Notes: generated by a model not told the origin, from the letters alone. DNA of 39,031 nt from Reclinomonas americana ATCC 50394 (GCA_048213135.1 PS015076.1:63264-102294), one strand, 5' to 3'; shown: positions 1 through 36,600, counted from the first letter of the stretch. Translations and numbers: made by a program.

Positions 1-2683
1 TGTGGAGACGCAACAGCAAAGCGAGCACGACGCTTGCGCAGCCGCTCGCCCACAATGTCGCGCAGGAATTCGAGCACGTCCGGTGCATGCTTGGCGTCGG
101 CATCGTCACGTCGCAAACCCAGCGCGGCGTTCCACGCACCCGCAGTACTGGCGGCCGCACAGCACGGACTCGGTTGCTTCACCCACGCGCCCAACACTGT
201 CGGCGAGTACGTGATGGAGAAATTGCGAAAGGCGCTGTTGAGACCGGGTAGCGCGCCGTCGGGGAACAGCAGCTGCATCAGCTGCTCATTCGTCAACTCC
301 TCGCTCTGCTCCGAATCCATCTCCACCGCCGTCGGTGGCGCTGCTGCGGTCGCGGTGGCGGCGACGGCGTCCTCCTTNNNNNNNNNNNNNNNNNNNNNNN
401 NNNNNNNNNNNNNNNNNNNNNNNNNNNNNNNNNNNNNNNNNNNNNNNNNNNNNNNNNNNNNNNNNNNNNNNNNNNNNNNNNNNNNNNNNNNNNNNNNNNN
501 NNNNNNNNNNNNNNNNNNNNNNNNNNNNNNNNNNNNNNNNNNNNNNNNNNNNNNNNNNNNNNNNNNNNNNNNNNNNNNNNNNNNNNNNNNNNNNNNNNNN
601 NNNNNNNNNNNNNNNNNNNNNNNNNNNNNNNNNNNNNNNNNNNNNNNNNNNNNNNNNNNNNNNNNNNNNNNNNNNNNNNNNNNNNNNNNNNNNNNNNNNN
701 NNNNNNNNNNNNNNNNNNNNNNNNNNNNNNNNNNNNNNNNNNNNNNNNNNNNNNNNNNNNNNNNNNNNNNNNNNNNNNNNNNNNNNNNNNNNNNNNNNNN
801 NNNNNNNNNNNNNNNNNNNNNNNNNNNNNNNNNNNNNNNNNNNNNNNNNNNNNNNNNNNNNNNNNNNNNNNNNNNNNNNNNNNNNNNNNNNNNNNNNNNN
901 NNNNNNNNNNNNNNNNNNNNNNNNNNNNNNNNNNNNNNNNNNNNNNNNNNNNNNNNNNNNNNNNNNNNNNNNNNNNNNNNNNNNNNNNNNNNNNNNNATT
1001 CTCGGTGGTGGTGGAGGCGACTGCACGCGATGGCACCGCCACCACCACCTTTTGCCTGCGTGTAGCACTGGCGGTGGTGTCCAGCGAGAGCAGTGTTGAC
1101 GGCGGCCGCGGTGGCAGCTCATTGACAATCATGGTCGCGAGAATCGCCTTTTGCTCATCCTCCGACGTCGGCGACGACAGCGGCGACGCCGACGAGCTCG
1201 ACAGCGAATCCGACAGCCGATCACTGTGCTCCGCCGCCGCCGCAGCCGCGGCAGCAGCGCTCGGCTTGCCCTCGATCAAATCACGCTCCAGCGGCACTGG
1301 CGCGTGCGGTCGTCCCATCAACAGCGACGGCGACGACGACGACTTGCCAATCACCATGAGACCGGCGGCGGCCGTCGACCAGCCGTTCTCCGTGGGGGGA
1401 CTGCGGGCGGCAAAGCTCTTGCGAATGGGCACAATCATGTCTTCCTCTTCTTCTTCTTCCTCTGTGTCGTCGCCCTCAATGAATAGTTGGCGGCGTTGGC
1501 TTGGTGGTTGAACGGGGGGCAAAGGGGCGTGGGGTGGGGGTGGTGAGGGGACTGTGGGGGAAGGAGAAGGGGTGAGAAAAAGGAAAGGGGGAAGGGGGGA
1601 GGAGAGCTGGGGAAACGGAGAAAGAACAAAGCCAGAGGCTAGAGGGTAGGACTGAAGAGTGGGAGGAGAAGAGGAGTGATTACAGAGAAGGAAGATGAGG
1701 AAGAAGAGGAAAGGAGAGAGTCGGACTGAGACAACTGAGCTGCGAAAGAGGGACAGCAAGAATGGAGGCAGCAGAGAGGATGATAGGGGGCAAAGGAGAA
1801 GAGGCAAGAGGAGGGCAGGGGGAGGAAAGACTGTCAGGAGGGAGGAGAGAGTCACAATGAGCTGTGAAAGAGGGACAGCGAGAAAGGGAAGCAGCGAAGA
1901 GGGACAGGAGGGAGGAGAAGTGACGAGAGGGAGGAAGGAGGAAGGGACGGACACAAGGAGGGGAGAGAAAGGGAAGGGAAGGAGGGGACGAGACGAGAAG
2001 ACAGGAAGGCAGAGGGAGGAGGCAAGAGGGGGCCAGAGGGAGGGATGAAGACCAGAGGGCGATGGAGGAGAGGCAGAGAGAGAAGAGAGAGAGAGAGAAG
2101 AGACAGAAGGAAGATGAGGAGGGAGAGACAGTGAGAGGGAGGGCAGGAGGACGCAACAGGGAGAGGCACGAGGGAGATACAGAGAGAACACGCTCCAAAA
2201 TGCACCTGCAGACGACAACACTGGCGATCGCGATGACAAGCTCGACCAACGCGCAGGCACAATCGCTATGGATGCTGATGTTGTAGTTGTAGTTGACACT
2301 GACTGTTCCTGTTGCCTTGCACTCTATTCTCCCCGCACGCACGCAACAATAATAAACACAGACACAAGAGAGTGAGAGATCAAACAGAGCGCGGACATTG
2401 GTTGCCGAGTTCCTCCGTGTGTGTGTGATTATTTCCCCTTGCCTCTCTTTGTCAGACAACTCACCCCTCCAATGCGCATCCACAGTGCACACTCTGTGTG
2501 TGCGTCTGTGAGGCGCCACATGCACTGAGAGCGCGCATGCTCAAATTCCGCTCTCCTTGCGCTCTCCAGCGAGGAGGAGGAGTTGTTGACAAGGGTGTGT
2601 AAGAGAGGGAGGCCGCGGGGTGCGCAGAAGCGGAAGGCCACTTGCGAGTGTTCTTCGCAGAGGGCCGAGTGCATCATCATCAT
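1..2683 (-). CDS. Partial multi-exon gene: low-complexity S/P/E-rich N-terminal part, then a papain/peptidase-C39-like (BIVM-like) motif; runs off the window start
   Basis: The minus-strand segment 377-15 reads KEDAV...LGAWVKQPSPCCAAASTAGAWNAALG...LRKRRARFA and ends at donor T|GTTGCG (plus 9-14). An upstream coding segment lies at ~1497-999, across an N gap. A possible first exon MMMMHSALCEEH... starts near 2683. The 5' exon structure is uncertain and the family call rests on motif resemblance only. Confidence 0.55.
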
Positions 2684-2927
2684 TGTGAGAGATGAGAGAG
2701 ATTGATAGCGAACGGTCACAATGATGAGTCAACGGTGCGCGGACAACTGCGGTATTGATATTGGGGGAATTGAAAGGGAGGTCAAATGTATGTGGGACTA
2801 CAGGTTAGTGATTGGGACGGGGGGGGGGGTGTTGTCTGTGAAAGGGAGCTGAGGGTCGGGAGGATGGAGGGCAGCAGCAGGAAAGTTATTGATTGCTTCA
2901 CGAATATGGACCGCAGCGGCCAAGCTT

Positions 2928-4495: not shown

Positions 4496-5002
4496 TCACT
4501 CATCGCTCGAGTGCACCTGCGCAACAACAAAACAAACACACACACACACATGCACGAACCACAACGTCAGCGCACAAGTTCCTCTCTCTCTCTCTCTCAA
4601 GCAGAACGCAACATCCGGCATCTCATTCATGGCGACGACAGCAGTAGTGCCACCGCACGAGACAGACTCGTGCGAGGCCTCACCGACAGGGTCGGCGCCG
4701 ATGATAGCGGCACACGGAAGGCTCTCCAAGCCCTCTGCGAGTGAGAGACAGAGAGTAAGAGAGTGAGTGACACACATTCTCCTCTCGCGGTCTCACATTC
4801 TCACACACGCATACACATGGATACATCTCACTCTCTCACACTCACACCCTTGCACACACACTCATACACTCACACACTCACACACACACTCAGCCGCTCT
4901 CCTGTCTTCCCTTTCCTCTCTCTCTCCACTCTCTCTCTCTCTCTCTCTCTGTCTGACTCTTTCTTCTCACGCACCATTCGGACGCGAATGCGAAGAACCC
5001 AT
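4496..5002 (-). CDS. 56-aa three-exon microprotein with an N-myristoylation-type start (MGSSHS)
   Basis: Exons 5002-4975, 4734-4613 and 4516-4496 join in frame through GT..CAG introns: MGSSHSRPNEGLESLPCAAIIGADPVGEASHESVSCGGTTAVVAMNEMPDVHSSDE, followed by TGA TAA. Confidence 0.65.
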
Positions 5003-9783: not shown

Positions 9784-9939
9784 TTACTGCTTGTTCCGCT
9801 TTCCGTGACTGTGACCGTGACCGTGACCGTGATGGTGATGGTGATGGTGGTGATGGCCGGGGTGATGACACGCTCCACCCTCCTCCTCTCCTTCCTCGTC
9901 GTCGTCATCATCATCGCCGCCCTCCATCTCTTCGTCTTC

Positions 9940-9972
<33 letters not shown>

Positions 9973-12900
9973 CGCCAGGAACGGATTCTCCCACGTCTCC
10001 CACACTTCCGGACCGAGAGCCATCTCCTCGTCCGTCAGCAGGCACGCATCCAGCGTGCGCTCCACAGTCACGCGGTCCATGTGAATGCCAATGAACACGA
10101 CCTGCGTAAATTCGCAATGAGCAACTGATTGAAAAAATGGCCTTCTCCTTCTCCCACGTCAACCCACCTCCTGTCGTCGGTCGCCAAACTCGGGATGCGC
10201 AGGATCGAAATCCTTGCGCAGGTTCTCCCGCTCAGCCTCCGTCTCACACGGCCACTCCTCCACCGGCGTGGCCGCAAACCACGGATGGCTCTCCTCCACG
10301 TGGAAAATCTGCACACGCACGGGTAAGTCGCCGTGCTCTTGCTTTCTATGGCGAGAAGATGCTTCACGCAACATCGCCCGCCTGGCTAAACTCGATGCAG
10401 TCGTCGTTGCAGGCGGCGATCCACATAAAGCCCTTGGCACGCACGATAATCTGGCTCAACACCTGCTGCTCCAGCAGGTCCCAGAAGCGCTGCGGGTGCA
10501 CCGGCCTCCTCCGACGCCACACAAAGCTCGAAATGCCTGTGGGGGGACGGGGGTGGTGGGAGGGGGGAACGGGGCGATGGATGGCACCGGGCTTCGATTA
10601 CCAACCGTACTCCTCCGACTCGGGCACATGCTCGCCCGATCGCATCTGCTTCAGCCAGCCAACCGAGGCGGCGGCCTTGGCGAATGAGAAGAGGCCAGTG
10701 TTGAGCACGTGCTCCAGTGGGAGAGTCGAGTGCACCTTTGTGATGGGAAAAGGCGGTGAGTGCACTCACACTCGTCTCCTCTGCCTCTCCCCTGCTTCTT
10801 TCTCTCTCCCCCTCTTTCAGCAATCCATCCACTCACCGTGCGATGAATGCGAGCCTCCGGGTTCAACTTGCGAACAATGGCCTCAATCTGCTCCAGCTGC
10901 GCCGGCTCCACCAGATCCGTCTTGTTGATGATAATCACGTCGGCGAACTCGACCTGATCAATCAGCAAGTCGGCCACCGTCCTCTCGTCCTCCTCTGAAA
11001 TCTTGTCGGCTCCGTACTTTTCCGACAAATCGTCCGTGCTGCGCAGGTACTGGTGAAAGTTGTGCGCGTCGACCACGGTGACTGTGGTGTCGAGGCGCGC
11101 CACGTCCGACAGCGCCGACAGGCCGGGCACGTCAAAGGTGAACGTCTCGGCCACGGGCATCGGCTCCGCAATGCCGGTGCTGAACATGCACAGGTAAGTG
11201 ACCAAGGGGGGAGAGGAGTCGAGGGGAGTTTTGTTGCGCACCATTCAATGACCAAGTAGTCGAATCGGCGCTCCTCGGCCAGCTTCTTGACCTCGAGCAG
11301 CAGGTCCTGGGTGGTGGCGATAAGTGAGGAGAGACAGGAGGGAGAGAAGATGACATTAGTAATTCTCACCTCACGCAGCGTGCAGCAAATGCAACCTGTG
11401 GAGGGAGGGCGCGAATGAGTGCACGAAAATGGCAGAAATGTGAAGAAGGAAGAGCGTGGCAAACCGTTTTGCATCTCCACCATCTTCTCTTCCACCTTGC
11501 TCAGCTTGGCGCCGGATTTCTTCACCAGTTCCGCGTCGATGTTGACTGGGAAGGCGGAGGGGAGGGGGAAGGGAAAGGAAAGGAATGAGCAGTCACGCTG
11601 ACTACACAACAATCGTCAACAGCAGCGGGCGACTGACAAAGAGTGTGTGTCCGTGTGTTTGCTTGCGAGTAATTGAGAGAGAGGGAGAGAGACACGCACG
11701 GACGCGTAGACAGACAACAGGCAATAAAGAGGCTGCACTTATTCGATGTGTGGGTGTACCCACTCAACATATGCACCAGTACAATGAGGAGTGCACATAC
11801 AGACACACTCACGTGCAACACATGCTCAAGTATCGTTTAGAAGGCAGTAGCGCCTTTCTCTCTCTTTGCATGCGCGTGTAATCTCGTACACAACGCACGA
11901 ATGCGCAGTTACAGATAAATTCACATGCAACGCATAATCAAGCATGGCAGTAGCAGAGGTTTGTCTCTCTCTCTCTCTCTCTCGTTCAGTGAGCGTGTGA
12001 TCGTGCTCAATTCACAACCACCGTGCACAGGAGAGCGACAGACAAGCAAGTAATACATCATCAAGCAACGCTCATGAAGGCAGCAGCATGCTAATGTTTG
12101 TCTCTATCTCTCTCCCTCTCTCAGTGAGCATGTGATAGTGCTCAATTCACAACCACCGTACATAGGAGAGCGACAAACACGCAACACATCATCAAGCAAC
12201 GCTCATGAAGGCCGCAGCATGCTAATGTTTGTCTCTATCTCTCCCTCTATCAGTGAGCGTGTGATAGTGCTCACTTCACAACCACCGTGCACAGGAGAGC
12301 GTGCAGAGAGCGCTCACCCTCATACTCTACTGATGCGACGACAATATCGATCTCCGAGAAAGACCTCTTTGAATGCACACACGAGCTGCCCGCAGGATCT
12401 CTCCTGCAATCGCCCTCTCACCTTCGGCCATGTCGTTCACAATCACCGCCACTCGCATGCCAGAGCGATTCGTCAAGATGTGATTCAACAGCGTGGTCTG
12501 CAGGTCACAACAGATCAGAAAACACACGAAGCAGCGCGACAAACACACACACACACGAGGAAGGGAGGGAGAGGAAGAGAGGGAGAGGAACTCAGGAGTG
12601 ATCGCGTTCTCCTCTTCTCTCTCTCTCTCTTGCTCTCTCTCTCCCTCCTCTCTCTCCTCCCTCCCTCCTCCTCCTCCTCCTCCTACCTACCACCACCACC
12701 ACCTACCACCTACCTACCGTACCACCGACCGACGAACGAACGACGACGACGACGACGACGACGACCGACCGACGTACCGNNNNNNNNNNNNNNNNNNNNN
12801 NNNNNNNNNNNNNNNNNNNNNNNNNNNNNNNNNNNNNNNNNNNNNNNNNNNNNNNNNNNNNNNNNNNNNNNNNNNNNNNNNNNNNNNNNNNNNNNNNNNN

Positions 12901-21089: not shown

Positions 21090-23519
21090 TCACTGCACGA
21101 TATTCTTGGCGATATTCTTGGCGATTCGACGCAGGAACTTCTTGCACGCTCGCTCGTGGAAGACCACCCCTGAGCGTTCACGATTCCCAGTGAGCAAGAC
21201 GACGAAAGATCGTCGTCGAGGTCGGCAGGTCACATGCACGTCGACTCACCATTTTCGCTGATTTGCACCGCCACCCGAAGGATGCATGTGGAGAGTGTTG
21301 TGGCGACGGCTGTCGCAAACAACATGAACATGGCGCGCCTGCGCTTCCGCGGTATCGTAGACTCCACGTCCATTTCGTCTGGCGCGCTCACCGCGCAATA
21401 GTGTTCCGTCATGGGATCTAATCATCAAGATGGTGCACACACTGAGTAGCACATCGAGAAGAGCGCACGGCGCGCGACAACGTCACTCAAGTCGCGCAAC
21501 TGACAGCACTCTCGCGGCCTTCTCGCAGTACAAAATCGTACAACAGGTACTCGGAGTCGGGAAATGAATTCTTTGGTCCCTCGACCTGTATCCAGTGCAC
21601 GAGGCGAGTGTCGAACGGACCTTCCTGCAGCACGTCAAATGTGCGGGTGACATCCGAATCCCACAGCTGTTATAGGTAGCACTCAGGAGTCAGAGTGTGT
21701 GCAAAGCAAAGAGGAAATGCGATGTCACAAACCCGAGGATTGCGGAACCGCTCAATAACGTTAGAGGCAGAGAGTGGCACGTCGTAGGAGACCAGCTTGA
21801 ACACCTGGTAGCGAGCAGGATGACAAAACTTGAGTGCAAGCGACGAACACATCAGTGCACCAACTGAATCTGTAAACTCGTGCTCACCTTTCCTGGCGTA
21901 CCGCTGACTCTCATCACCGGGGGCGCGGTGCTTTCGACGACAAGTTGTGCTATCTGGAACCTGTTCGAGGCATTTCAGAAACGAGAACCTGTCGCGCTGC
22001 GGCAGAAAGGAGGAGAACAGTACCGAAGAGCGCCCTCCTGTTTCGCGTCCAGCACCTTCCACTTGATGCGCTGTGCCTCGGCAATCGACTGCATGCGAGC
22101 AAAGCCATTGGTGACCTGTTATAATTTGCAGGGAGGACCAGCAGCATGAGACCGGAGACAACAGCGCTAGAAGGAGCGATGATTGAGGAAAAGTGACTGA
22201 CGACGCACCAACCAGATGGGAAACTCGAGAAACATCTGCAACGGTCCTCGGCTTCGTACCATCTCGTCACCCTTGCTAATTGCACTCATTGCCACAGGCT
22301 CCACGTGCGCACGCTCGCAAACAGCGCGATAAAGTTCCGAAATCTGCACACATGAGCGAAGTGAACGACGGAAAAAAGTGCATCATACATGTATGCACCG
22401 CAGGCTGACACACCAGGGCGCGCGGTGAGCCCTTTGCTTGCGCCAGATTGCGATGCAACTGATCAAGCTTGCTGCTGAAGTCGTCCACAGCGGCCGCCGC
22501 ACTCGCGCTGGATCTGCTTGCTCTCCCAACATGTCCCTCAAGGCAGAGCGCAGCACACACACTCAATAACTGGTGGTAATCGGCTGAGTAGCTGGCAAGC
22601 TGCAGTCGCTGCGCCGCGCCAACGAGGTCTCCTTGCACCGCCAGCATTTTGGCAGCGTTCCACGCAATATCCTCTTCTGACCAATGACCCCACTTGGCCA
22701 GCGACACCTGCGTCGCAAGTGTGTCACAGCAGTGTTTGGCCGTCGTTGACAACGGAACAGGGGCAGCAGCGCAACAAACTGGCGTCGAGACTGCAGCCGC
22801 TGCGATTCATCCGCCAGGGGCACAAAGAGTTTGGCATAACTGACGGTAAGATCAGACTCGAGCACGGTGTGCGGCGCCGGCAGTCCGTCTGGGTCAGCGC
22901 CAGCGGCCGGGGCAGTCAGTGCACTCACAATGCGCGTAAAATCCTCCACGCGACTGCCTCACGCAGTAAGTCGACACGACACACAAACACACTTTGCAAA
23001 CACGCAGCGACACCACACTCACGTGAAGTCATTGCGCAGAAACTCCACGTAACCGTGAAGCTCCGTCAGTGCGGCCGCCAGGTCCTCCACCACGCCCTCT
23101 TCTCACGACGGCCAACATCAGCAACGGCACACCAACCAGGCACATCATACAAACAAAACACACGTACCAGTGCAGCGGTTAAACTCCAAGTCGTCGACAA
23201 TAGCCAGCAGCACCGGCAAGAAACGCGCACACACTGCATGCAACTGATTTCGCAAGCTGCGGACGGCCGGATGCTGATGCTCTCTCACTGCCTCCTCCAG
23301 CGTACGATTCAACAAAAGCACTCGTCCACTGAACGGCTCGGCGTGGATGATCAGCTCGAGTGCCAACAGATCGCGTACCAGTCGAGAATCACGATCGGCG
23401 CGGTCTCGATCAGCAATGTCGCGCACAACGTTGGCAATTCTGACCACGGCTTTGGTCAGGCAGAGCGCGGCGGCGGAGAATGACTCGTCGTCGGCGCGGT
23501 GATCGCTCTCGCCTTCCAT
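21090..23519 (-). CDS. Multi-exon protein: helical N-terminal region and divergent START-like domain (paralog of the convergent neighbour)
   Basis: Starts MEGESDHR... Contains VFKLVSYDVPLSASNVIERFRNPR|LWDSDVTRTFDVLQEGPFDTRLVH. The last exon is GVVFHERACKKFLRRIAKNIAKNIVQ*. The junctions near 22020-21890 are uncertain. Confidence 0.75.
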
Positions 23520-24403: not shown

Positions 24404-25574
24404 ATGGGACTGGATGCCCTTGATGAACGCGCGCCGCTTCCTGGCGTCACGAAGGAGGAGGAGACAATACAACGACTTCTGCGCGCCGAGGCGCGTTTCA
24501 AAATCGAAACACTCGCGAGGGAGTGCTTCACACGGACGAAGAATTTCGGTGGGCGCTGTGTCACTCCTGGTCTCCTAATTCACAGTCTCACAGCTCGTCG
24601 TGCCATGCAGTCGTCCCGACCGCACCCACGATTGTTCCTGCAAACGAGACAGAGGAGGTGACGAGTGCCGAGGTCACCGAAATGGCCGCAGTCATTGGTG
24701 AGAGTGACTAGTACTGGTATCGTCTCGATCTGCGCCCGCCGTTGTCCCCCAACGATATGTGCAGACCGTTTGCTCGGCGAGAATCTGCTCACGCTACGCT
24801 GGGACTCGGTGCCTGCGTACCGTGGGTTGCGTCTGCACGAGCGACGCATGGCCGCCGCACGTGAGCGAATGGCGCTCTTGTGTGACAACAACGACCCCAC
24901 TGCCATCGACGGCAGCAAGCTGTGCGAAAGTACGCTCGTTGCCTCGTACAGCACAGCGCAACGTATTGCTCATGGTGCCCATTTCCATTTGTTGAAAATA
25001 GGCTGGCTACGTGGCATTCTGGTTGGAGGGTGGCAGCAGCTCGGAAGAGTTGCGAGCCGTGTTGGCGGACTGGGAACAGGCGGTTCGCGTGTTTGACAGG
25101 CAGGAAGTCGCGCTGATTTGTGGCGGGGGAACGATGGGCTACCGAGTTGAGTGAGGAGATTCGCAAGTTCTCACCCGCGTTGTATTCGTGCTGACTGCCG
25201 TGGTTGCGCAGGCGCCAGAGAGCGAAATACACCCCCTGGCCGGCAGCGACGAGGATGAGATCACACAATGGAGTTGCGCATCCGACATGTGGAGTGCCGG
25301 TGTGGTGATTGCCGAGGCGTTGCTGAGCCGCAAGATGGTGCAAATCGACTCCTCGTTGTCGCGCCTGCCGCCAACGAAAGTGGCCAAGACGCTGCTCAGG
25401 ATGCTAGAGGACAAGTGCAGCAGTCGCCACCACAAGACGATTACTGAGGAGCTGTACTTCCAGCGGGGTGTCGACCTGGTCGAGGCACTCCTGGTGCTCG
25501 ATCCACAACGCCGACTGACGGCGGAGCAGGCGCTGGAGAGCGACTTTTGCGTGTTTATGACACGCTCTGTGTAA
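24404..25574 (+). CDS. Protein kinase-like gene with only the activation segment and C-lobe recognisable (pseudokinase or truncated gene)
   Basis: LRAVLADWEQ...GGTMGYR|APE, SDMWSAGVVIAE and DLVEALLVLDPQRRLTAEQALESDF. No GxGxxG, VAIK or HRD motif was found upstream. Confidence 0.7.
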
Positions 25575-25610
25575 CACGCAGTGAGCAGCAGCCATCGGCG
25601 TCAACAACGA

Positions 25611-26215: not shown

Positions 26216-26478
26216 ATGTCATCACGCGGTGGTCGCGGTGTCGGCGGCTTCCTCCTCAAACGCGGAGGCGCCTTTACCGAAAAGTGGCAAAAGCGATGGT
26301 TCCAGTGGGACGACGCTCGTCGCGAGTTGGCCTACTATACTAATGATGATGTTGAGTGGAGAATAGAGAAGAGGGAGAGAGAGAGAGTGAGTGAGTGAGT
26401 GAGCAGTAAGTGATGGTGAGAGAGAGTGTGTGTGTGAGCGAGTGAGTGAGTGAGTGAGTGATCGAGTGAGTGTGTGAG

Positions 26479-26561
<83 letters not shown>

Positions 26562-27458
26562 NNNNNNNNNNNNNNNNNNNNNNNNNNNNNNNNNNNNNNN
26601 NNNNNNNNNNNNNNNNNNNNNNNNNNNNNNNNNNNNNNNNNNNNNNNNNNNNNNNNNNNNNNNNNNNNNNNNNNNNNNNNNNNNNNNNNNNNNNNNNNNN
26701 NNNNNNNNNNNNNNNNNNNNNNNNNNNNNNNNNNNNNNNNNNNNNNNNNNNNNNNNNNNNNNNNNNNNNNNNNNNNNNNNNNNNNNNNNNNNNNNNNNNN
26801 NNNNNNNNNNNNNNNNNNNNNNNNNNNNNNNNNNNNNNNNNNNNNNNNNNNNNNNNNNNNNNNNNNNNNNNNNNNNNNNNNNNNNNNNNNNNNNNNNNNN
26901 NNNNNNNNNNNNNNNNNNNNNNNNNNNNNNNNNNNNNNNNNNNNNNNNNNNNNNNNNNNNNNNNNNNNNNNNNNNNNNNNNNNNNNNNNNNNNNNNNNNN
27001 NNNNNNNNNNNNNNNNNNNNNNNNNNNNNNNNNNNNNNNNNNNNNNNNNNNNNNNNNNNNNNNNNNNNNNNNNNNNNNNNNNNNNNNNNNNNNNNNNNNN
27101 NNNNNNNNNNNNNNNNNNNNNNNNNNNNNNNNNNNNNNNNNNNNNNNNNNNNNNNNNNNNNNNNNNNNNNNNNNNNNNNNNNNNNNNNNNNNNNNNNNNN
27201 NNNNNNNNNNNNNNNNNNNNNNNNNNNNNNNNNNNNNNNNNNNNNNNNNNNNNNNNNNNNNNNNNNNNNNNNNNNNNNNNNNNNNNNNNNNNNNNNNNNN
27301 NNNNNNNNNNNNNNNNNNNNNNNNNNNNNNNNNNNNNNNNNNNNNNNNNNNNNNNNNNNNNNNNNNNNNNNNNNNNNNNNNNNNNNNNNNNNNNNNNNNN
27401 NNNNNNNNNNNNNNNNNNNNNNNNNNNNNNNNNNNNNNNNNNNNTAGTGTGTGTCGTC

Positions 27459-27540
<82 letters not shown>

Positions 27541-29222
27541 GCTCCACCAAAAAAGGCGTCTTCCCCTACGACGGCATGCTGGAAATGCGCAAGGAGTCCA
27601 TCAAGCCCAACGTTGTGCTTCTTCTCACACCCTCACCTATCTCTCTCACACTCACTCATTCACTGCTCTCTCTCTCTCTCACTCACTCGCACAGTGCTTC
27701 AGTGTTCTGGTGAACAAGAAGCCGCAGAACCGCAGTCACAAGCCCACACAGTACTTTCTGGTCGCGCGCAGTGAGAACGAAGTCGATTTGTGGATGGAGC
27801 TCATTGCGCGTCAGTCGCCACACATTCCCTCGTTGCAGCGGGAGGCCATGATTGATGATGATGATGATGACGATGATGTTGGCGGCGACGATGGTGGTGA
27901 TAAAGTCCGTGATGAGACAGGCACTGGAACAGCTGCTGTGGGCTCGCTGGGAGCAAAGAGTGTCACTGGCGATGTTGTCCTTGGCGGTACTGCAGAGACC
28001 GCAGTGACTGTGCCTGCTGCGATGGAGACCGCTGCTGCGGTGGGAGAGGAGGAGGTGTGCTGTGAAATGCGCGTTCGTCTGCTGCATTGCGTGTCTTAGC
28101 GTGTGTGCGCGCGCAGAGTGGTGGCAGTGCGTCGCGTGTGGCGCCCAAGCGACCGATTTTGTATTCGTACCCGGCGTCGGTGCATGGCTGGCGATGTGAG
28201 TTGGCGTTGCGCGAGAAGAACGTCAAGTATGATGTGCAGTCGCCGCCGGGTGGATTGAAGAGGTTTGTTTTTGGGAAAGGAGGGGTTTCTACTTCAGTGT
28301 TCTCTTTTTCGCTATGACGCTCTCTCTCTCTCTCGCTTTCTCTCTCCAGCGTGCGCCGCTTCCCCCTTCTCCTCCTTTCTTCTCTCACTCCCTCTGTCCC
28401 TTCTGCATTCTCTCACTTACTCTTACCTGCTTGTTCAACTTTCTCTCCACCGTCCTCTGCTTCCTCCCCTCTCATCCTCTCCTCTCTTCTCATCCTCGTC
28501 TCCCACCACAGCCGCGAGTTCCTCGCCATGAACCCCCGCGGCCAAGTACCCGTATTCGTCGACGAGAACGTGGTGGTGCGTGAGAGCGTGGCCATCATGG
28601 AGTACATTGAGCGGGCGTTCATCGGACACGCCTTTCCGCGACTGAGCCCGCCCGCCGACAATGCACTTCAAGTGTCGCGCTTCATGGTACGCACGACGGC
28701 GACTATGCCACACACATCACGCTCACCCGCCTCCCTCGCCTCTCCAGGAATGCATGAACAACCTCAGCTTCCTCACCCACATTGCAGAGCCAGTCATGTG
28801 GCACTGCGTCTCGCTGCAAGTATTACCGCCCGACATGCTGCTGGATCGCGTCCGTCTCGCCATTCGCGAACTGCGCTACTGGAACGACTGCCTGCTGGAG
28901 AGCGCCGGCCCCTTTGTCCTCGGCGCCTCGCTGACCATGGTGCGTCTTGATGCAGCCTCCGTCTCACGCGCACACACCGCGTGTAGCTCACACATGCATC
29001 CAGGTCGATCTGGGCCTCCTCCCACACGTCTCACTGCTCTCCGACCTCGGCATCGACCTGTCCGGAATGCGACGTCTCGCCGACTGGCGCGACACCATGT
29101 TCACACGGCAATCGGTGCGCGACACGTACCGAGAGACACCAGAAGGCCGCGGCGTGCTCAACACAGCACCCATTCGCGAACTCCTGCAAGCCAGCGAAGT
29201 CGACGCTGCACGAAGAAAGTAA
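26216..29222 (+). CDS. PH domain-glutathione S-transferase fusion protein, 7 visible exons
   Basis: PH: GFLLKRGGAFTEKWQKRWF...KPN|CFSV...YFLVARSENEVDLWMELI. An acidic linker follows. GST-N: ILYSYPAS..WRCELAL, EFLAMNPRGQVPVFVDENVVVRESVAIMEYIE. GST-C: GPFVLGASLTM|VDL...RLADW. Junctions are in phase; an N gap lies in intron 1. Confidence 0.85.
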
Positions 29223-29290: not shown

Positions 29291-32200
29291 ATGGCGCAAG
29301 TGTACAAGCACATTCACTGCTTCTTCTGTGGTGGTGCCTCTTGCAAACACGAAGACTGGCAGTTGAGCGTTATTCACACTCATTTTCTTTCACTCTCACA
29401 CTGATTGTGACTGACACACAGACGAGCTCTGAGTGGACCCAACCCGCGACTTGCGCTGGAGGGACTTCACTCTCACTGGGTCACTGATTACATTGTGGCG
29501 TCGCAGAGGCCGAGTCAGCGACTCATGCGCGAGTATAACGTCATTCAGCAGTTCAAAGAGCGCGGGATTGCCGCCATTTTTAACTTGCAGGAGGCCAAGG
29601 AGCATCCGAGTTGAGTGAGAGAGATAAGGGGAAGAGTAAGGGGGAGAGGGAGGAGAGGGAGATGAGTGGAGAAGAGTTGCTGTTTTGTGATCGGACAACC
29701 TGTATCATGTACCTTTCTGTTGAGTCTTCGTGGCTTTTGTTTCTGTCTGTTCACTCTTCTCGCCCCACTTTGCATTCACTCTCTTCTTTCTAATCTTCGT
29801 TCTTTCCCCTCTTCATCAGGCATCATGTTCTTTAACCGCTTCTCTTCTCTTCTCCTTCTGTTCTCTTCGAGATCTTCTGTCTTCTTCGTCCTCCTCCCCG
29901 TTCTCCTCATCCGCTGCCTTCTGTATGGCTCTACGTTGCTCATCTATCTTTCTCCCCTCTTCATGAGGCTTCTCGTTCTTGAACTGCTTCTCTTCTCCTT
30001 CTCTTTCTTCTCTTCCTCTTCTGTTTTCTTCTTCCTCCTCCCCGTTCTCCTTCTCCGCTGCCTTCTGTTTGTCTCAACGTTGCTCATCCCTCTTCATCAG
30101 ATCCCTCGTTCTTGAACCTCTTCTTCTTCTTCTCCTCCTCGTTCACTTCTTCCGCTGCATTCTGTGTCGCTCCTATTCTTCAGTTTCGACTTCATCTTTT
30201 CTATTCCTTCTCCCTTGTCTTCCTTCGTCTCCGTCCACCTCGTTCTTGTTTCCGTCGCTTCCCTCTTCTGTCTTCCTCTTCCTCCTCCCCGCTCTCCTCC
30301 TCCTCCTCCTCGTTCTCCTTTACCGCTGCATTCTGTAAGACTAAATGTTGCTCATCTCGCTCTCCTCCCCTCTTCATCAGGTCCCTCGTCGTTAAACCTC
30401 TTCTTCTTCTTCTTCTCCCAGTTCTCCTCCGCTACTACATTCTGTAATGCTCCTGTTCTTCGGTTTCGCCTTCACCTTTCTCTTCTTCTTCGCCTCGTTG
30501 TTCTCCCTCCTGCCTTCCTCCTCCTCCTCCTCCTCCTCAGCGTCCTCCTTCTTGTTCCCTCATCTTCTTTGCCTCCTTTTCTCTTCCCTCTCCTCCTCCT
30601 CCTCCTCCTCCTCCTCCTCCTTCTTCTTCTTCTTCTTCTTCTTCTTCTCCTCCCCCTCCTTCTCCCTCCCCGCTCACCCCCTTCCCCTCTCTCCACAGGC
30701 TGCGGCGATGGCATCCTCCCCGAGATCGGCTTCTCCTACGACCCAGTGGATTTCCAGCGCGAAGGCAGTTGCGTATTCAACCTCGCCTTCTCTCCTCCGG
30801 CCTTCACTCACACTTTCCTCTCTTTTCTCAGTCTCCTACTACAATCTGTGCTGGCGCGACATGACGGCACCCGACTACAACATTGTCATGAACATTTGCC
30901 ACCTGGCGGCCATGCATCGCGAGTACGACCAGAAAATCCTCGTGCACTGCCATGCGGGACTCGGTCGCACTGGCCTGGTGATCTCGTGCTTTCTCGTTTT
31001 CCACGAGGGCCTCTCGGCACAAGAGGCCATCACGCACACCAGAGCAAAGAGGTCGGGCCGCGTTGCATAGTTCTGTGTGCGCCCTTGTCGCTCACCACGC
31101 TGTGCAGACCCAAGTCCATTCAGACGCGCGGTCAAGTCCGTTTCGTGTATCGCTTTGCCGAGTATGTGTCGCTGCTGAGGCGCGTGTACGAGGATGTGCC
31201 GGCCAAGCGAATGTCGCTGCATGGAATCATGGAGAAGCAGCGGATTCTTTGTTGCGTGGGCTGCATGACAGCCATGATGATCAGCCCATTCTTTCTGTAC
31301 CCCTAATTTCTAGTTCCCGTTCTGCTTCTTTTTCGCAAGCTCGTTCTCCACTCCTGGCATCTCTTCTCTTTCTGCTCTCACAAGGCACCCTTTCACAACA
31401 CCTTTTCTGTCTTCGTCTCCTTGCCCCCATCCTTTCACGACTTCCACTTGTCTTCTCTCTTTCTACTCTCCCCTCACACTCCGTTTTCCTTTCCCTTTCC
31501 CTCTCCCTGTCGCACTTCACTCGTGTCCTTTCTTTTCTTCCCGCACNNNNNNNNNNNNNNNNNNNNNNNNNNNNNNNNNNNNNNNNNNNNNNNNNNNNNN
31601 NNNNNNNNNNNNNNNNNNNNNNNNNNNNNNNNNNNNNNNNNNNNNNNNNNNNNNNNNNNNNNNNNNNNNNNNNNNNNNNNNNNNNNNNNNNNNNNNNNNN
31701 NNNNNNNNNNNNNNNNNNNNNNNNNNNNNNNNNNNNNNNNNNNNNNNNNNNNNNNNNNNNNNNNNNNNNNNNNNNNNNNNNNNNNNNNNNNNNNNNNNNN
31801 NNNNNNNNNNNNNNNNNNNNNNNNNNNNNNNNNNNNNNNNNNNNNNNNNNNNNNNNNNNNNNNNNNNNNNNNNNNNNNNNNNNNNNNNNNNNNNNNNNNN
31901 NNNNNNNNNNNNNNNNNNNNNNNNNNNNNNNNNNNNNNNNNNNNNNNNNNNNNNNNNNNNNNNNNNNNNNNNNNNNNNNNNNNNNNNNNNNNNNNNNNNN
32001 NNNNNNNNNNNNNNNNNNNNNNNTCCCCCTTTCCTCCCCCTCTCCTCCCCTTACCTTTCCCCTTCCTCTCCCTTTCCTCCCCCTTTCCTCCACCGTTCCT
32101 CTGCCTCTTCCCTCCGCCTCTTCCCTCCTTCTGCTTCCCCTCCTTTTCCCTTACTCTCCCCCCTTTCCCTTACTCTTCCCCTTTCCCCCACCCTTTCCCT

Positions 32201-33564
32201 ACATCAGTGCACGGCATCGAATACCGCGAGCTCCGGCACACCCCAAAGATCGTGCACTGCACGTGCGCCGCCATGGAGGACGTGTTCGCCACGTTTGTCT
32301 CCGACGACCAGCGCAACGACGCCCTCCTCTCCCTGCTGACGTACGACAATGAGCAGCACCACAATGCCATTTCGGAGGCCATGGTGCGCTTTTCTCTCTC
32401 ACTCTCTCGACGCCCACACAGTCACCTCTCACCACCCGTGCCTGCAGGCGGAGCTGAACGAAGGCTGGTACGTCTGCCTGGACACCAACACGGCCGAGGA
32501 GTTGCCGATGATCTTTGCGCTCCTCATTCGATTCCTGTACTCCTTGAAGGTTTTTTTAACCACCACGATTACTGTCTCCTTCTCCGCCTCTCTCCCCTCA
32601 CCTCCCCGTGCAGGAACCAGTGCTGTCTGCCAACGAAATCACCATACTGCTGTCGGAGCCGGAGGATGCACGTCGCGCGGCGGTGTCACCTCTCGACAGA
32701 CTGCACCGCGACATGCGCTTCACGGTGGCCAGAATATTGGAGATGCTGCAGCGCATTCTCGAGTGGTCGCACATCTCCGGAGGCGCAGCTGCTGCTGCTG
32801 CTGCGGGCACGGGACTCCAGCTGTCCCCCATCGTCGACTCGTTTATGCCCTCCCGCGTCCCCAACGTCTCCGCATTACCAATGCTGGAGCCTCTGGAGGT
32901 GGCCTCGAGTGCGCCGCCGCCGCCGGTGAGTCGCTCATTCTCTTTCACTCACTCTCCCCGTTCCCCTGTCCTCACCCGCCTGCGCAGCCGCCAGAGGGCA
33001 AGCTGCACCGACTGGTCGCCAAGCAAGTGGCCGGCGAGCTTCTTGCCGCACTCACGCACGATCGCAACATGCTGTGGGTACAACCGTCCAGCGCCGAAGC
33101 CGTGGCGTCGGCACCACCGCCAGCACCCACACCTCCACTGGTCATTCTCTGGCACGAGCTCATTCGCAGTGGACGCATTCCACGGCTGCCCGGCACGGCC
33201 GCCCACGCCGCCGCCCTCAAGGAGTCGCCGCTCTCCACCGACTCGTGGAATGCTCCCGATCTGTACCAGGAGCCCGACTCTGACACAATTGCGCGCATCA
33301 TTGAGGAGGCTGGTGCGTGGCGCGAGCGCTGCAGGAGACCACATTCGCTCGCTCACACTGTTCACACAGAGGCCAACGAGGCCATTCTGCAGAGTCCTTC
33401 CTGCGTGGCGCAGCAGGCCGATGCACAAATGGGAGAGATTGTCGACGATGCCGAAGGTGAAGCCTCCTCCTCCATGCTGTCGCCTCCCCCTTTCCCCTCC
33501 CGCTCACCGTCTCCCTCGCGCAGACGACGAAATGCTGGACTCGGAGGCCGAGTTGCCCGAGTAG
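29291..33564 (+). CDS. PTPDC1: Protein tyrosine phosphatase domain-containing protein 1 (dual-specificity phosphatase family)
   Basis: CFFCGGASCKHEDW, EGLHSHWVTDYIVASQRPS, NLQEAKEHPSCG, catalytic HCHAGLGRTG, RPKSIQTRGQ and QRILLHGIEYRELRHTPKIV all match PTPDC1-family motifs as I recall them. Confidence 0.9.
29800..30460. repeat. Degenerate pyrimidine-rich tandem repeats in PTPDC1 intron 2
   Basis: ccgctgcmttctgt...gttgctcatc...cctcttcatcag...cctcttcttc units recur several times. Confidence 0.7.
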
Positions 33565-33620
33565 CATTAAAACATTCGGCTATACACTAAAAAAAACTAT
33601 GGAAAAAACATCATGTTATG

Positions 33621-36600
33621 CTATCTTTTTGTGCCCGATCTCGACGACGGAGCATCGGTGCCACTCTCTTTCCGGGAGCGCAAGCCCGACGCCCGAAATC
33701 TCTGGTCGTTCTTCGTCTCCAGCGTGTACGTCGTCAGAAGATCGTGGATTTGCGAGGCTGCGAGAGTGATGTTGATGAGAAGAAGATGAAGATGAAGAAG
33801 AAACACTCCCACACGCAACTGGTGTGACGCGACGATGCCGACGAGTACGCCGTGGTACCGCTAGAGGCATCGGTGTTGTCAACACGATCGTCTCCCGGTT
33901 CCACGGCCGATGCACGACGCGCCGCCGGTGTATGCTGCGCCGGCTGCGACTGTTGCTGCTGCAGCTGCAAATATTGTTGTTGCTGATGCTGTCCGCTTGC
34001 GGGGGTGGCCGACGCCTGCTGCTCCTGCGCCGTGAGCGTCTGTTGCTGTCGCTCGAGAGACGGCGGTGGCGAGGCGTCGCCAGCTGTCGATGCGGATGCC
34101 GGACTTGGTGCAGGGGATGAATTCTCGGGCGACACAGAGGGGCGCCCTGGCCTCGCGCCGGCGGGCGTGGCGTGCACCATTCCCGCAGCGACCCCGGCGG
34201 CAGCAGCGGCCGCCGACAAACCGGCTGTTGTGGTCGACAAGACGGGGATCGGCTCGCCGCCGTGATTCGACCACGTGGCACTCGCCTTGTTCCGCTTGCG
34301 ACCAAACAGAGAAGCCTGTGCGGAGAGGTCAGACGAAAGAGAGGAGAGCGAGAGCAGAGAGGTTTCGGCGTGTGGGTAACGCACCGCGGCCTCCAGTGCG
34401 ACACCGCGCACATGATCTAGATCCGTGGACTGCTGCAAGTTGCCTGCATCTGCACCACCCTCTGACTGTCCCAGCAGGCGACCTGATTCAGGGGTGCAGC
34501 AGCAACACACTCGATCAGCAAGGAGTCCCACATGACATGCGCACGTAGAGTACGTAACCGCCATCTGTCGTGTCGCTGCGTCCCGAGTCTGTGGCGTGCG
34601 AGCGTGGCGTGACCAGCGACGCGCTTCCAGACAGCTCGGGATCATCCGCCATGTCTGCGCCACGCTCGTCGTCGGAGCCTCTATGCATGACAAAGAGAAT
34701 GAGACTGTGAGTGACACCAATCGCAACCAACTCTCGTCGACTGAAATGCGCACCGTCCACTATCGCCATCGCCGACGGCGGTGCCTTGCGCATTCTGCAG
34801 AGCGTCGCTGGGAAAATGCACGGCCATGTCGTACCGTTTGTGCATATCGCTGGCGCGCTCGCGAAGACCGGCTCGTGTGCGTTGCACGCGTGAGAGGAAC
34901 TTGTCGGAGAAGCGCGTCGAGCGGCCGACAATGCGGCACAGTTCGAGCAAGTAAATGAACTTGTAAATGATCCAACCCACCGCACCCAGTCCCCACGCCA
35001 AGGCTGCGTCAGCACGAATGAGCGGCGAAAGGTACTCGACAGACTCAGCAAAGCAATCCATCTCACCGGCCACCAAATACGACAAGAACAGCAGGACCCA
35101 CTCCAAGAAGCCGCGCCCGACACGGCTCTTCAGCACCGACACGTCCTGCTGCATGGCGTCCACCGAGTCCTTGTTGCCCATAATGTCACGCTCCAGTTGC
35201 TCCAGTCGGCGTGCCATGTGCTCGCTCTCCCGCCGCGTGTCGCTGACGTGTGTGTCGAGCTTGTCCATGAAAATGGTGTTGGCAAACAGCTCCTTGCGCA
35301 GCGGAGTCAGGTGCATCTGCACCTCGTCCTCGGTCAGCTTTGCCAGACGACTGTCGCGAGCCTACAGAGCAACAATGAGAGGAGGAAACAAGACTGCCAC
35401 CTTTGTGGAGAGACCACCTTTGTGGAGAGATACGCACCACAATATCGCGCTGCATCATGTCGTTTTGTGCCCGCAGCACCTCGTTCTGCTTCGTGAGCAT
35501 GTCGATTCGACTCTGCAACTGTTCGACCACGGACTCGAGTCGCTCGGTTGCCGTTCGACACTCCTCCAGCGCCGACACTCGCGCTCTCAACTGCGTCAGC
35601 TCGCGTTGCGCCAGCAGTGGCACAGGCAGCTGTAGGTTGGAAGCCGAGGCCGATGCCAATGGTGGTGGCATCACGGTGGCCGCCAAATCCAGCGCCGCTG
35701 CCGTGCTGTTGTTGGGCGTCGTCAACGACTCGGCGGCATTGGCAGCCGACGTCGGCGACGACATGTTGTTCATCGAGGCCACTCGGGGCACTGCGTGGTG
35801 CGAGGATGAGAAGCTGCTGATCAAAAATGGAAGAGGACAACCGACGCAACTGCGAAGCATCGACGCGTTGCGCTGCGCCGCGGAGGCATGCAAGCGCAAT
35901 TTCTGCGACATGACCTCCACAGTGGCCGTCACGCGAATCTGCGAACCGCCACCACGCACTTGCTTGCCGCTGCGCGTGAGCAGCGGGTACCATTTGGTCC
36001 GCGGATTGTCGACAAACATGTGCGGGTCGAGACGAATCTGACCGACGAGCGCCTCGTCGGCGCGCACGACGGCATTGTCGATCACCTTGATGAGCAGCTC
36101 GCTGGACATGGAGCTAATGGGCACCGTCATCTGGTAGTTCCACACCGGGGCACGCGTGTTGGCCACCACCGGCGAGAGGAAGCGGCGACCACCGGCCGAC
36201 ACCTCGCAGTACGCATCGACACCGACCTGATGGCGACCCTGCGGCAACTGTCGCGCCGCATGCAGCGTCAGCGTCCAATTGCCAATCGTCTCACTTGGCG
36301 GCGACTGCTTCGACGACGCCTGACTGTCGAGCGACCCGGGGCACGCCGGCGCACCGGTATCGGAGTGCGGCAACAGCAACTGGCCCGGCGATGGCGGCAC
36401 GCTGTTGGCTGGCGTGCCGGCAGGGGTGTTGGCGGCTGACGACGGAATCGAACGGGCCGAGGGGCCTGACAGGAAATTGCCGAGAACACCAGAGCTGCGC
36501 GCCGACGACGGCGGCTGCAGTTCCGTGTCGCTGCCGGCGCTGTTGACGCCACTGCCGCTGCCGCCGCCGGCCGAGATCCCGTCGACTCCGCCGCTGTCGC

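What the first reader, a model, noticed from the sequence alone, without database searches (positions are those of the whole stretch)
9..35850. Abundant +1-shifted 5' splice-site class (non-G|GTTG[A/C/T]G) beside the normal G|GTG[A/C/T]G donors
Seen in sequence: about 18 of ~70 hand-assigned introns begin GTTGCG, GTTGAG or GTTGTG. Plus-strand cases start at 16130, 18700, 19903, 20068, 25146, 26351, 27612, 29362, 29610, 30768 and 31251. Minus-strand cases start at 14, 4612, 10372, 21500, 22775, 33819 and 35850. This is the genome's common GTGCG/GTGAG/GTGTG donor with one extra T. The exon base before these is never G (9 T, 7 A, 2 C; five read CA|G), whereas most other donors have -1 G. I found only four non-G donors of the normal type (16261, 16512, 18384, minus 23023). 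Cleavage before the GT restores frame and conserved motifs: GYR|APE, KPN|CF, EHPS|CG, RILL|HG, FPS|FVF. Established knowledge: rare human /GUUAAGU sites pair with U1 in a +1-shifted register (Roca and Krainer). Inference: here the intron's first G takes the role of the -1 G in about a quarter of introns, moving the +5 G to +6. That implies routine shifted or bulged U1/U6 pairing, or dedicated variant snRNAs.
Basis: partly seen in the sequence, partly recalled or inferred. Interest (0 to 1): 0.85.

Follow-up and report, generated by a model that had tools for sequence, protein, structure and literature searches.

The report
Abundant one-base-shifted intron start sites
About a quarter of the short introns in this stretch of an unidentified eukaryote start with GTTGNG instead of the usual GTGNG and lack the usual G before the cut, as if the splicing machinery reads them one base out of step, which in humans is only a rarity.

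Summary
All 18 listed hexamers sit at the stated coordinates. Intron-free or distant homologues align without a gap across five of the junctions: minus 10372, 29362, 29610, 30768 and 31251. Nine more fit stop-free multi-exon gene chains. Four are uncertain or untestable: 18700, 26351, minus 4612 and minus 14.

I curated 65 introns:
- 41 have G at +5 (the normal class).
- 18 are GTTG[A/C/T]G.
- 6 are other.

The base before the cut is G in 0 of 18 GTTGNG donors and in 35 of 41 normal donors (Fisher p=2e-10). For homology-proven junctions alone it is 0 of 5 against 9 of 9 (p=5e-4).

Flanking preferences move by one base. Position -1 behaves like normal -2, +5 like +4, and +7 like +6.

This fits a +1-shifted U1 register better than a bulged U. 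U1 and U6 could not be examined, because no genome, RNA run or snRNA gene was available, so the mechanism is inferred. Three literature searches found no report of such an abundant class.

The parts
16130..16192 (+). 63-nt intron, donor C|GTTGCGC, in a multi-pass membrane protein gene
   Evidence: Chain-consistent. Read-through has an in-frame stop. There are 5 frame-keeping GT-AG solutions; one alternative is C|GTCGGAC 21 nt upstream. A donor-blind parse picked this donor.
18700..18756 (+). 57-nt candidate intron, donor T|GTTGCGT (uncertain)
   Evidence: It needs a 13-nt micro-exon (18687-18699), or else an alternative upstream path that changes the frame. There are 8 frame-keeping solutions. 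No homologues were found for this gene.
19903..19975 (+). 73-nt intron, donor T|GTTGTGT
   Evidence: Chain-consistent. An alternative GT 3 nt downstream (T|GTGTATG) also keeps the frame.
20068..20132 (+). 65-nt intron, donor T|GTTGCGT
   Evidence: With the TAG acceptor, this is the only donor that opens the 93-codon downstream exon and the rest of the chain to the stop at 21042. An alternative, C|GTACGTG, needs a GAG acceptor.
25146..25211 (+). 66-nt intron, donor A|GTTGAGT, in a CMGC-like kinase gene
   Evidence: It joins ...GYR to APE.... Read-through stops after 2 codons. The downstream exon matches Pkinase and CDK12. A donor-blind parse picked this donor.
26351..27539 (+). 1189-nt candidate intron, donor T|GTTGAGT (uncertain), in a PH-domain gene
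   Evidence: Chain-consistent. However, A|GTGAGTG 36 nt downstream uses the same acceptor and frame, and the intron contains an 883-nt N run.
27612..27694 (+). 83-nt intron, donor C|GTTGTGC
   Evidence: Chain-consistent. The downstream exon starts at PH profile position 69 (weak). An alternative GT 3 nt downstream keeps the frame.
29362..29421 (+). 60-nt intron, donor A|GTTGAGC, in a dual-specificity phosphatase gene
   Evidence: Gap-free alignment to P0121 across the junction; best of 5 solutions.
29610..30698 (+). 1089-nt intron, donor A|GTTGAGT
   Evidence: The only frame-keeping GT-AG solution within 36 nt. It joins EHPS|CG exactly as in P0121.
30768..30831 (+). 64-nt intron, donor A|GTTGCGT
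   Evidence: The only frame-keeping solution. The junction ...EGI|SYY... aligns gap-free to P0121.
31251..32207 (+). 957-nt intron, donor T|GTTGCGT; it joins the catalytic half to a part the gene parse had called a separate gene
   Evidence: The junction ...RILL|HG... aligns to P0121. The intron contains a 477-nt N run.
1..14 (-). Donor T|GTTGCGT at the window edge (untestable)
   Evidence: The motif is present after an open exon. The acceptor lies outside the window.
4517..4612 (-). 96-nt candidate intron, donor T|GTTGCGT (uncertain)
   Evidence: In frame with no stop in read-through, and 11 frame-keeping solutions. The composition is intron-like.
10309..10372 (-). 64-nt intron, donor T|GTTGCGT, in a ZigA/CobW-like GTPase gene
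   Evidence: The junction AGD|IFHV aligns without a gap to P0106, P0120 and bacterial ZigA proteins. It is the best of 7 solutions.
21418..21500 (-). 83-nt intron, donor A|GTTGCGC
   Evidence: Read-through stops after 5 codons. Splicing links to a downstream exon that is itself followed by a normal G|GTGAGT intron. The 10-exon chain has 0 stops. There are 2 frame-keeping solutions. The branch-like motif is weak.
22708..22775 (-). 68-nt intron, donor T|GTTGCGC
   Evidence: Chain-consistent. A donor-blind parse picked this donor. There are 6 frame-keeping solutions; among the alternatives no other donor has G at +5.
33758..33819 (-). 62-nt intron, donor A|GTTGCGT, in a C2-domain gene
   Evidence: Chain-consistent. 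There are 3 frame-keeping solutions; the other two donors lack G at +5.
35791..35850 (-). 60-nt intron, donor A|GTTGCGT
   Evidence: CTCAT branch-like motif and CAG acceptor. The intron is in frame with no stop in read-through, so its removal is not forced.

Best explanation
These are ordinary GT-AG spliceosomal introns. Their 5' splice site is the genome's normal recognition motif, (G)|GUGNGU, with U in place of the first intron G. The GU used for cleavage therefore lies one base upstream, giving H|GUUGNGU.

U1 snRNA would pair with them in a register shifted by +1:
- intron +1 G with the C that normally pairs with exon -1 G;
- +2 U mismatched;
- +3 U with the A that normally pairs with +2 U;
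- +6 G with the C that normally pairs with +5 G.

The cut is fixed later at the GU by U6, U5 and Prp8, which must accommodate one extra U.

Shown here:
- the class exists;
- it is abundant in this window;
- it lacks the -1 G preference;
- its flanking preferences are displaced by one base.

Inferred: the U1 register and the later accommodation step.
For: - Five junctions are proven by homology and nine more by stop-free gene chains.
- 18 of 65 curated donors are GTTGHG, against 2.1% of all GT sites.
- -1 G occurs in 0 of 18 against 35 of 41 (p=2e-10). Homology-proven junctions alone give 0 of 5 against 9 of 9 (p=5e-4).
- The per-position likelihood of the class under the normal-donor profile is far better when shifted by one. 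The log-likelihood ratio is +29.3 at -1, +14.7 at +7 and 44.9 in total.
- Mean potential pairs to the U1 5' end are 3.8 canonical and 6.6 shifted. Normal donors score 6.9 in the canonical register.
- RNAduplex puts +3U on A7 and +6G on C4 in 6 of 18 donors (standard U1 5' end) or 14 of 18 (the G5 variant reported for Mastigamoeba). It almost never chooses the bulged arrangement, 0 and 1 of 18.
- Length (median 66 against 69 nt, p=0.93), acceptor (13 CAG, 4 TAG) and branch-like motifs match those of normal introns.
- Shifted pairing with the cleavage site set later is established for rare human sites (Roca and Krainer 2009, as cited in PMC4856993; passages seen).
Against: - No RNA evidence and no U1 or U6 sequence of this organism could be obtained.
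- Pair counts do not separate shift (6.6) from bulge (6.4).
- Predicted U1 duplexes of the class are about 3 to 4 kcal/mol weaker than those of normal donors (-1.9 against -6.3, or -4.5 against -7.8). It is odd that so weak a class is so common.
- It also outnumbers normal donors without -1 G (18 against 6), although those should pair at least as well.
- The depletion of -1 G is not significant against non-donor GTTGHG background (0 of 18 against 11 of 77, p=0.12).
- The enrichment of 'CA|G' is not significant (5 of 18 against 4 of 41, p=0.11).
- Four of the 18 are unverified, and the sample is a single 39-kb window.
Confidence: 0.5

Rival explanations
1. A dedicated variant U1 snRNA serves this class. 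Its 5' end would pair without a mismatch with GUUGNGU, for example through a change at the position opposite +2 U. The genome would then run two 5' splice-site dialects, each with its own U1.
For: - The class is abundant (18 of 65), yet its predicted duplexes with a single U1 are much weaker than those of normal donors.
- Lineage-specific changes of the U1 5' end that track donor consensus are reported for Entamoeba and for a Mastigamoeba candidate (preprint 10.1101/2022.06.08.495308; passages and section 15 seen).
- Variant U1 genes exist in humans (titles and abstracts seen only in the listing).
Against: No snRNA gene could be examined. The one-base displacement of the exon-side and +7 preferences is just as well explained by one U1 in a shifted register.
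Confidence: 0.2
2. A standard U1 pairs in the normal register at +1 and +2, with one U (+2 or +3) bulged out, as in the human 'bulge +2/+3' register. There is no shift on the exon side.
For: - The mean number of potential pairs matches the shifted register (6.4 against 6.6).
- The register is experimentally validated for a few human sites (PMC4856993; passages seen: 68 predicted, 54 after curation).
- Three 'other' donors with -1 G look like one-base bulge forms: G|GTTACGT, G|GTACTGT and G|GTGAAGC.
Against: In this register -1 still faces the same U1 C, so the -1 G preference should persist. It is 0 of 18 against 35 of 41. RNAduplex chose this arrangement in 0 and 1 of 18 donors.
Confidence: 0.12
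3. The class is a by-product of how introns arise or drift in this lineage, for example T slippage at donors that lack -1 G, or a mobile-intron insertion bias. It is tolerated by a permissive spliceosome, and no particular pairing register is involved.
For: Other off-consensus donors coexist in the window, such as G|GTTTTTTT, G|GTTTTATA and C|GTTGCC. This suggests a tolerant machinery.
Against: +4 G and +6 G are invariant (18 of 18 each), and +7 is T or C only (18 of 18). Non-donor GTTGHG sites have +7 A25 T17 G13 C22. This points to selection on a displaced recognition motif.
Confidence: 0.1
4. The class is an artefact of hand-assigned boundaries: the true donors are nearby normal sites.
For: One GTTG donor that my own parse chose (31062, C|GTTGCA) was wrong; homology placed the donor at 31052, G|GTCGGG. 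26351, 20068, 16130 and 25146 each have a frame-keeping alternative donor with G at +5.
Against: Five junctions are fixed by gap-free homology, and two of them (29610, 30768) are the only frame-keeping GT-AG solution. Donor-blind methods also enrich the motif.
Confidence: 0.03

Closest known systems
+1 shifted-register 5' splice sites of human genes (Roca and Krainer 2009, Nat Struct Mol Biol; known to me from the reference list and passages of PMC4856993, and from recollection; the paper itself is not held)
   Same: The intron starts GU and is followed by an extra base. Complementarity to U1 is poor in the normal register and good when shifted by one. The exon -1 base is not the usual G. The cleavage site is uncoupled from the U1 register.
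   Different: In humans these are rare individual sites (rarity recalled; no count of shifted sites was seen). Here the class is 18 of 65 introns in the window. No suppressor-U1 proof exists here.
Bulge +2/+3 register 5' splice sites (Roca et al. 2012 and Tan et al. 2016, PMC4856993; passages seen)
   Same: The GUU... start allows one U to be looped out while +1, +2 and the downstream G still pair.
   Different: That register keeps the -1 G:C pair. The class here shows no -1 G (0 of 18). In humans there are 68 predicted sites (54 after curation), against about a quarter of the introns here.
Lineage-specific donor consensus with co-evolved U1 in Archamoebae: Entamoeba GUUUGU with U1 ACAAAC, and Mastigamoeba GUGCGC with a U1 candidate ACGUAC (preprint 10.1101/2022.06.08.495308; passages and section 15 seen)
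   Same: The normal donors here are GUG[C/A/U]G with C preferred at +4, like the Mastigamoeba consensus. GUUUG donors also occur: 7 of the 41 normal donors start GTTTG. The best phosphatase homologue is from the archamoeba Pelomyxa schiedti (45% identity).
   Different: The passages seen describe a single consensus per species and no second, displaced class. Whether this window comes from that lineage is unknown.
Strict GTGCG(T/C) donors of Mamiellales green algae
   Same: The normal donor core, GTGCG, is the same.
   Different: Those genomes are intron-poor with near-invariant signals. Here introns are dense and the donors fall into two classes.

Membership tests
U2-type GT-AG spliceosomal intron | GT at the 5' end and AG at the 3' end | tested here: met
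   17 of 17 GTTGHG introns with both ends in the window (assertion). Acceptors are 13 CAG and 4 TAG.
U2-type GT-AG spliceosomal intron | Branch-like motif shortly upstream of the 3' splice site, and the same size class as other introns | tested here: met
   A CTNAY motif is present in 14 of 17, with a median of 17.5 nt from the A to the 3' splice site. Normal introns have it in 36 of 41, at 19.5 nt. Median length is 66 against 69 nt, Mann-Whitney p=0.93.
U2-type GT-AG spliceosomal intron | Removal restores the reading frame or homology | tested here: met
   Five are gap-free against homologues. In 15 of 17, removal is forced by a frameshift or stop. Six gene chains have 0 internal stops.
U2-type GT-AG spliceosomal intron | Spliced junction seen in RNA | not testable with these tools
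   No RNA holder was listed.
+1 shifted-register 5' splice site | More complementarity to the U1 5' end when shifted by one base than in the canonical register | tested here: met
   Mean pairs are 3.8 canonical and 6.6 shifted (standard U1 5' end), or 2.8 and 7.1 (G5 variant). The U1 sequence is taken from papers, not from this organism.
+1 shifted-register 5' splice site | Sequence preferences on both sides of the cut are displaced by one base (exon -1 behaves as -2) | tested here: met
   -1 is T9 A7 C2 G0, against normal -2 of A15 T14 C9 G3 and normal -1 of G35/41. The log-likelihood ratio is 29.3 at -1, 14.7 at +7 and 44.9 in total.
+1 shifted-register 5' splice site | Rescue of donor mutants by suppressor U1 only in the shifted register | not testable with these tools
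   This is a bench experiment.
Bulge +2/+3 register 5' splice site | The canonical pairs at -1, +1 and +2 are kept, so the -1 G preference is retained | tested here: not met
   -1 G is 0 of 18 against 35 of 41 in normal donors. RNAduplex chose the bulged arrangement in 0 and 1 of 18.
U12-type (minor) intron | Extended, highly conserved U12-type donor consensus at the intron start (consensus recalled) | tested here: not met
   All 18 donors read GTTG[A/C/T]G.

The most novel reading that the evidence does not exclude
In this organism roughly a quarter of all spliceosomal introns genome-wide are recognised one base out of register. Either a single U1 pairs in a +1 shift, or a second U1 species serves them. 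The position of U1 pairing and the position of cleavage would then be routinely uncoupled, and two 5' splice-site dialects would coexist in one genome.
Probability: 0.45. Interest if true: 0.8.

Novelty: new variant of a known kind. Interest (0 to 1): 0.66.

Why it matters
Non-canonical U1 registers are known as rare exceptions in humans and matter there mainly for interpreting disease mutations. A genome in which a displaced register serves about one intron in four would be a natural system for three questions:
- how the cleavage site is chosen independently of U1 pairing;
- how U6 and the catalytic core accommodate an extra nucleotide;
- whether snRNA variants co-evolve with splice-site classes.

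It matters in practice too. Gene predictors trained on a single donor profile will mis-place or miss these donors. My own donor-blind parse mis-called several of them.

Tried and rejected
- Genome and RNA: no whole genome is held. No RNA holder was listed for 17400-25600. There are no earlier notes for this genome, nor any by sequence or specific words. No Rfam family reached its threshold in the window.
- Gene parsing: a donor-blind Viterbi parse without 3' signals was too noisy to use. Self-trained codon usage drifted into low-complexity sequence.
- A donor rejected: 31062, C|GTTGCA, was picked by my parse but rejected by homology in favour of 31052, G|GTCGGG.
- Homologues: a 93-residue exon of the TPR-like gene (20134-20412) gave only 2 weak hits of 1.84 billion representatives, so 18700, 19903 and 20068 could not be checked by homology. 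An exon of the membrane-protein gene gave no hit. Exon-level PDB searches and Pfam searches (9 of 10 exons without a family) gave nothing. My 'HGSNAT-like' label for that gene therefore rests on recollection only.
- Orthologues: the 80 kept metagenome loci for the ZigA exon are all at 59% identity or less, so no orthologous introns could be compared.
- Tests that were not significant: 'CA|G' enrichment, 5 of 18 against 4 of 41, p=0.11. -1 G depletion against non-donor GTTGHG background, p=0.12.
- Kinase junction: the PDB alignment of the kinase exon starts at residue 20-21, so the APE junction is supported by motif and frame, not by alignment.
- Literature: searches found no report of an abundant GTTGNG or GUUGNG donor class. 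Supplementary files of the Mastigamoeba genome paper (PMC8136499) are closed and might hold splice-site data.

Full report
**What the window is.** The 39,031-base window is eukaryotic nuclear DNA with about 55% G+C outside low-complexity stretches. It holds nine N-masked runs, 2,908 bases in all. It is densely packed with genes that carry many short introns. Gene parsing and exon-level family searches identify these genes:
- three WD40 genes;
- a ZigA/CobW-like GTPase (minus strand);
- a multi-pass membrane protein, which I recall as HGSNAT-like but for which no tool gave support;
- a TPR-like gene;
- an unnamed gene on the minus strand (21090-23519);
- a CMGC-like kinase;
- a PH-domain and GST-like gene;
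- a dual-specificity phosphatase;
- a C2-domain gene.

The organism is not identified. No genome is held, no RNA run was listed, and no protein identical to the window's own was returned. The best phosphatase homologue is from Pelomyxa schiedti at 45% identity.

**Checking the observation.** All 18 hexamers are at the stated coordinates, with T, A or C before them. One 'normal' donor, given as minus 23023, starts at 23022.

**Are they intron starts? Homology.**
- For the GTPase gene, bacterial and transcriptome homologues align across every junction. At minus 10372 the join AGD|IFHV matches them without a gap and is the best of 7 frame-keeping GT-AG solutions.
- For the phosphatase gene, P0121 aligns (score 590) across the joins made by 29362, 29610, 30768 and 31251, with no gap at any of them.
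- 29610 and 30768 are the only frame-keeping GT-AG solutions within 36 nt.
- The same test overturned one of my own calls. 31062, C|GTTGCA, is wrong, and the true donor is 31052, G|GTCGGG.
- The join at 31251 shows that a stretch my parse had called a separate gene (32273-33564) is the C-terminal part of the phosphatase gene.

**Are they intron starts? Gene chains.** Six multi-exon chains translate with no internal stop, including all the GTTGNG donors inside them: the minus-strand gene at 21090-23519, kinase, PH/GST, phosphatase, GTPase and C2-domain gene. The membrane-protein chains and the TPR-like gene chain contained coordinate slips that I corrected. They were not re-translated after the correction.

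For 15 of the 17 introns with both ends in the window, removal is forced by a frameshift or an in-frame stop. The weak cases are:
- 18700, which needs a 13-nt micro-exon;
- 26351, which has an A|GTGAGTG alternative 36 nt downstream and an N run in the intron;
- minus 4612 and minus 35850, which are in frame with no stop in read-through;
- minus 14, whose acceptor is off the window;
- 19903 and 27612, the two GTTGTG donors, which have a GT three bases downstream that also keeps the frame.

**More than chance.**
- GTTGHG is 95 of 4,551 GT sites (2.1%) but 18 of 65 curated donors (p=1e-15). Without the six uncertain rows it is 14 of 59 (p=2e-11).
- Two donor-blind approaches agree. A Viterbi parse used only codon usage, intron length, a branch-like motif and YAG. 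It chose 6 GTTGHG donors among its 75 introns (p=0.005).
- A screen of all GT hexamers for 3' signals plus open-frame continuity ranked GTTGCG first, with 6 of 45 sites and p=9e-4, ahead of GTGCGT at 5 of 42.

**Two classes of donor.** Of the 65 curated introns, 41 have G at +5, 18 are GTTGHG and 6 are other.
- T at +3 is therefore not special in itself. What defines the second class is that the downstream G sits at +6 instead of +5.
- -1 G occurs in 35 of 41 normal donors and 0 of 18 GTTGHG donors (Fisher p=2e-10).
- Without the uncertain rows this is 35 of 40 against 0 of 14 (p=4e-9).
- For homology-proven junctions only it is 9 of 9 against 0 of 5 (p=5e-4).
- None of the 11 GGTTGHG sites in the window looks like a donor.
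- A caveat applies. Against the background of non-donor GTTGHG sites (11 of 77 preceded by G), 0 of 18 is not significant (p=0.12). The finding is a missing preference, not a proven exclusion.

**Displacement by one base.** The independent positions of the GTTGHG class match the normal class one base along.

| GTTGHG class | Normal class, one base along | Normal class, same position |
|---|---|---|
| -1: T9 A7 C2 G0 | -2: A15 T14 C9 G3 | -1: G 35 of 41 |
| +5: C12 A4 T2 | +4: C17 T11 A8 G5 | +5: G 41 of 41 |
| +7: T13 C5 | +6: T24 C11 A4 G2 | +7: G16 C9 T8 A8 |

The summed log-likelihood ratio for 'shifted' over 'not shifted' is 44.9. Nearly all of it comes from -1 (29.3) and +7 (14.7). Non-donor GTTGHG sites show no such +7 bias (A25 C22 T17 G13). 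Intron length, acceptor and branch-like motif do not differ between the classes, so the same spliceosome is the simplest assumption.

**Mechanism.** I used the U1 5' end printed in PMC4856993.
- The class makes 3.8 potential pairs in the canonical register, 6.6 in a +1 shift and 6.4 with a bulged +3 U. Normal donors make 6.9 in the canonical register.
- Pair counts therefore do not separate shift from bulge. Two things do. A bulge keeps -1 opposite the same U1 C, so the -1 G preference should persist, and it does not. Nearest-neighbour folding also prefers the shifted arrangement and chose the bulged one in 0 and 1 of 18 cases.
- Against a simple shift, the predicted duplexes are 3 to 4 kcal/mol weaker than for normal donors. 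Yet the class outnumbers normal donors that lack -1 G (18 against 6). This leaves room for a dedicated U1 variant.
- The preference for C at normal +4 and at shifted +5 would suit a U1 with G at position 5. Such a U1 candidate is reported for Mastigamoeba, whose donors read GUGCGC (preprint 10.1101/2022.06.08.495308; passages and section 15 seen). Whether this organism has such a U1 is unknown.
- Three of the six 'other' donors carry -1 G and a G at +6: G|GTTACGT, G|GTACTGT and G|GTGAAGC. They look like true one-base bulge forms, but they are not homology-checked.

**Comparison with what is known.** Shifted and bulged U1 registers are established for small numbers of human sites. The bulge +2/+3 register has 68 predicted sites, 54 after curation (PMC4856993, passages seen). 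The founding paper on the shifted register is not held. Lineage-specific donor consensus with co-evolved U1 is described for Archamoebae. The main text of the Mastigamoeba genome paper reports 3.4 introns per gene and 60.7% G+C but nothing on donor classes (passages seen; supplements closed). Searches for the motif and for shifted registers in protists found nothing comparable.

**Verdict.** The shifted-register reading is the best-supported explanation, but it rests on sequence statistics from a single window. I rate it a new variant of a known kind. If RNA data and the organism's snRNA genes confirm it genome-wide, it would be of real interest to people who study splice-site recognition.

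Noticed in passing
window 5185-6252 and 6513-7574 (+): Two tandem, intron-free WD40 paralogues of about 355 residues. Their repeat units are near-identical, and both end in an acidic run followed by a shared tail.
   Followed up: no
window 9784-13390 (-): The ZigA/CobW-like GTPase gene has at least 9 introns, yet its closest listed relatives are mostly bacterial (57-64% identity). Eukaryote transcriptome hits are at 49-55%.
   Followed up: partly
window 11546-12421, 12498-13334 (-); 26351-27539, 29610-30698, 31251-32207 (+): Five introns of 837-1189 nt stand apart from the 56-101 nt norm. They are filled with CT/GA/CA microsatellite-like low-complexity sequence, and three of them contain N-masked runs.
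   Followed up: no
window 34483-34558 (-), 21950-22023 (-), 33457-33523 (+): Donors G|GTTACGT, G|GTACTGT and G|GTGAAGC keep the -1 G but have their downstream G at +6. They look like single-base bulge variants of the normal motif. The first has several frame-keeping alternatives.
   Followed up: partly
window 24938-25001 (+): Donor C|GTTGCC in the kinase gene has a non-G at -1 and starts GTTG, but has C at +6. It may be a weak member of the shifted class. A perfect GTACGC eight bases upstream is out of frame.
   Followed up: partly
window 32550-32613 (+) and 36977-37045 (-): Donors G|GTTTTTTT and G|GTTTTATA have no G at +5 or +6. The first is one of only two frame-keeping solutions and is the better fit to the homologue.
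   Followed up: partly
window 21040-21092: Two convergent genes, the TPR-like gene on the plus strand and the unnamed gene on the minus strand, end about 50 bases apart.
   Followed up: no
window 12018, 12153, 12282 (-): The same short motif (ggtg|GTTGTGAA) recurs about every 130 bases inside the long GTPase intron. This suggests a tandem repeat.
   Followed up: no
window 16426-16464 (+): In the membrane-protein gene the reading frame changes across a 20-base N run. A splice junction there is hidden and could not be placed.
   Followed up: no
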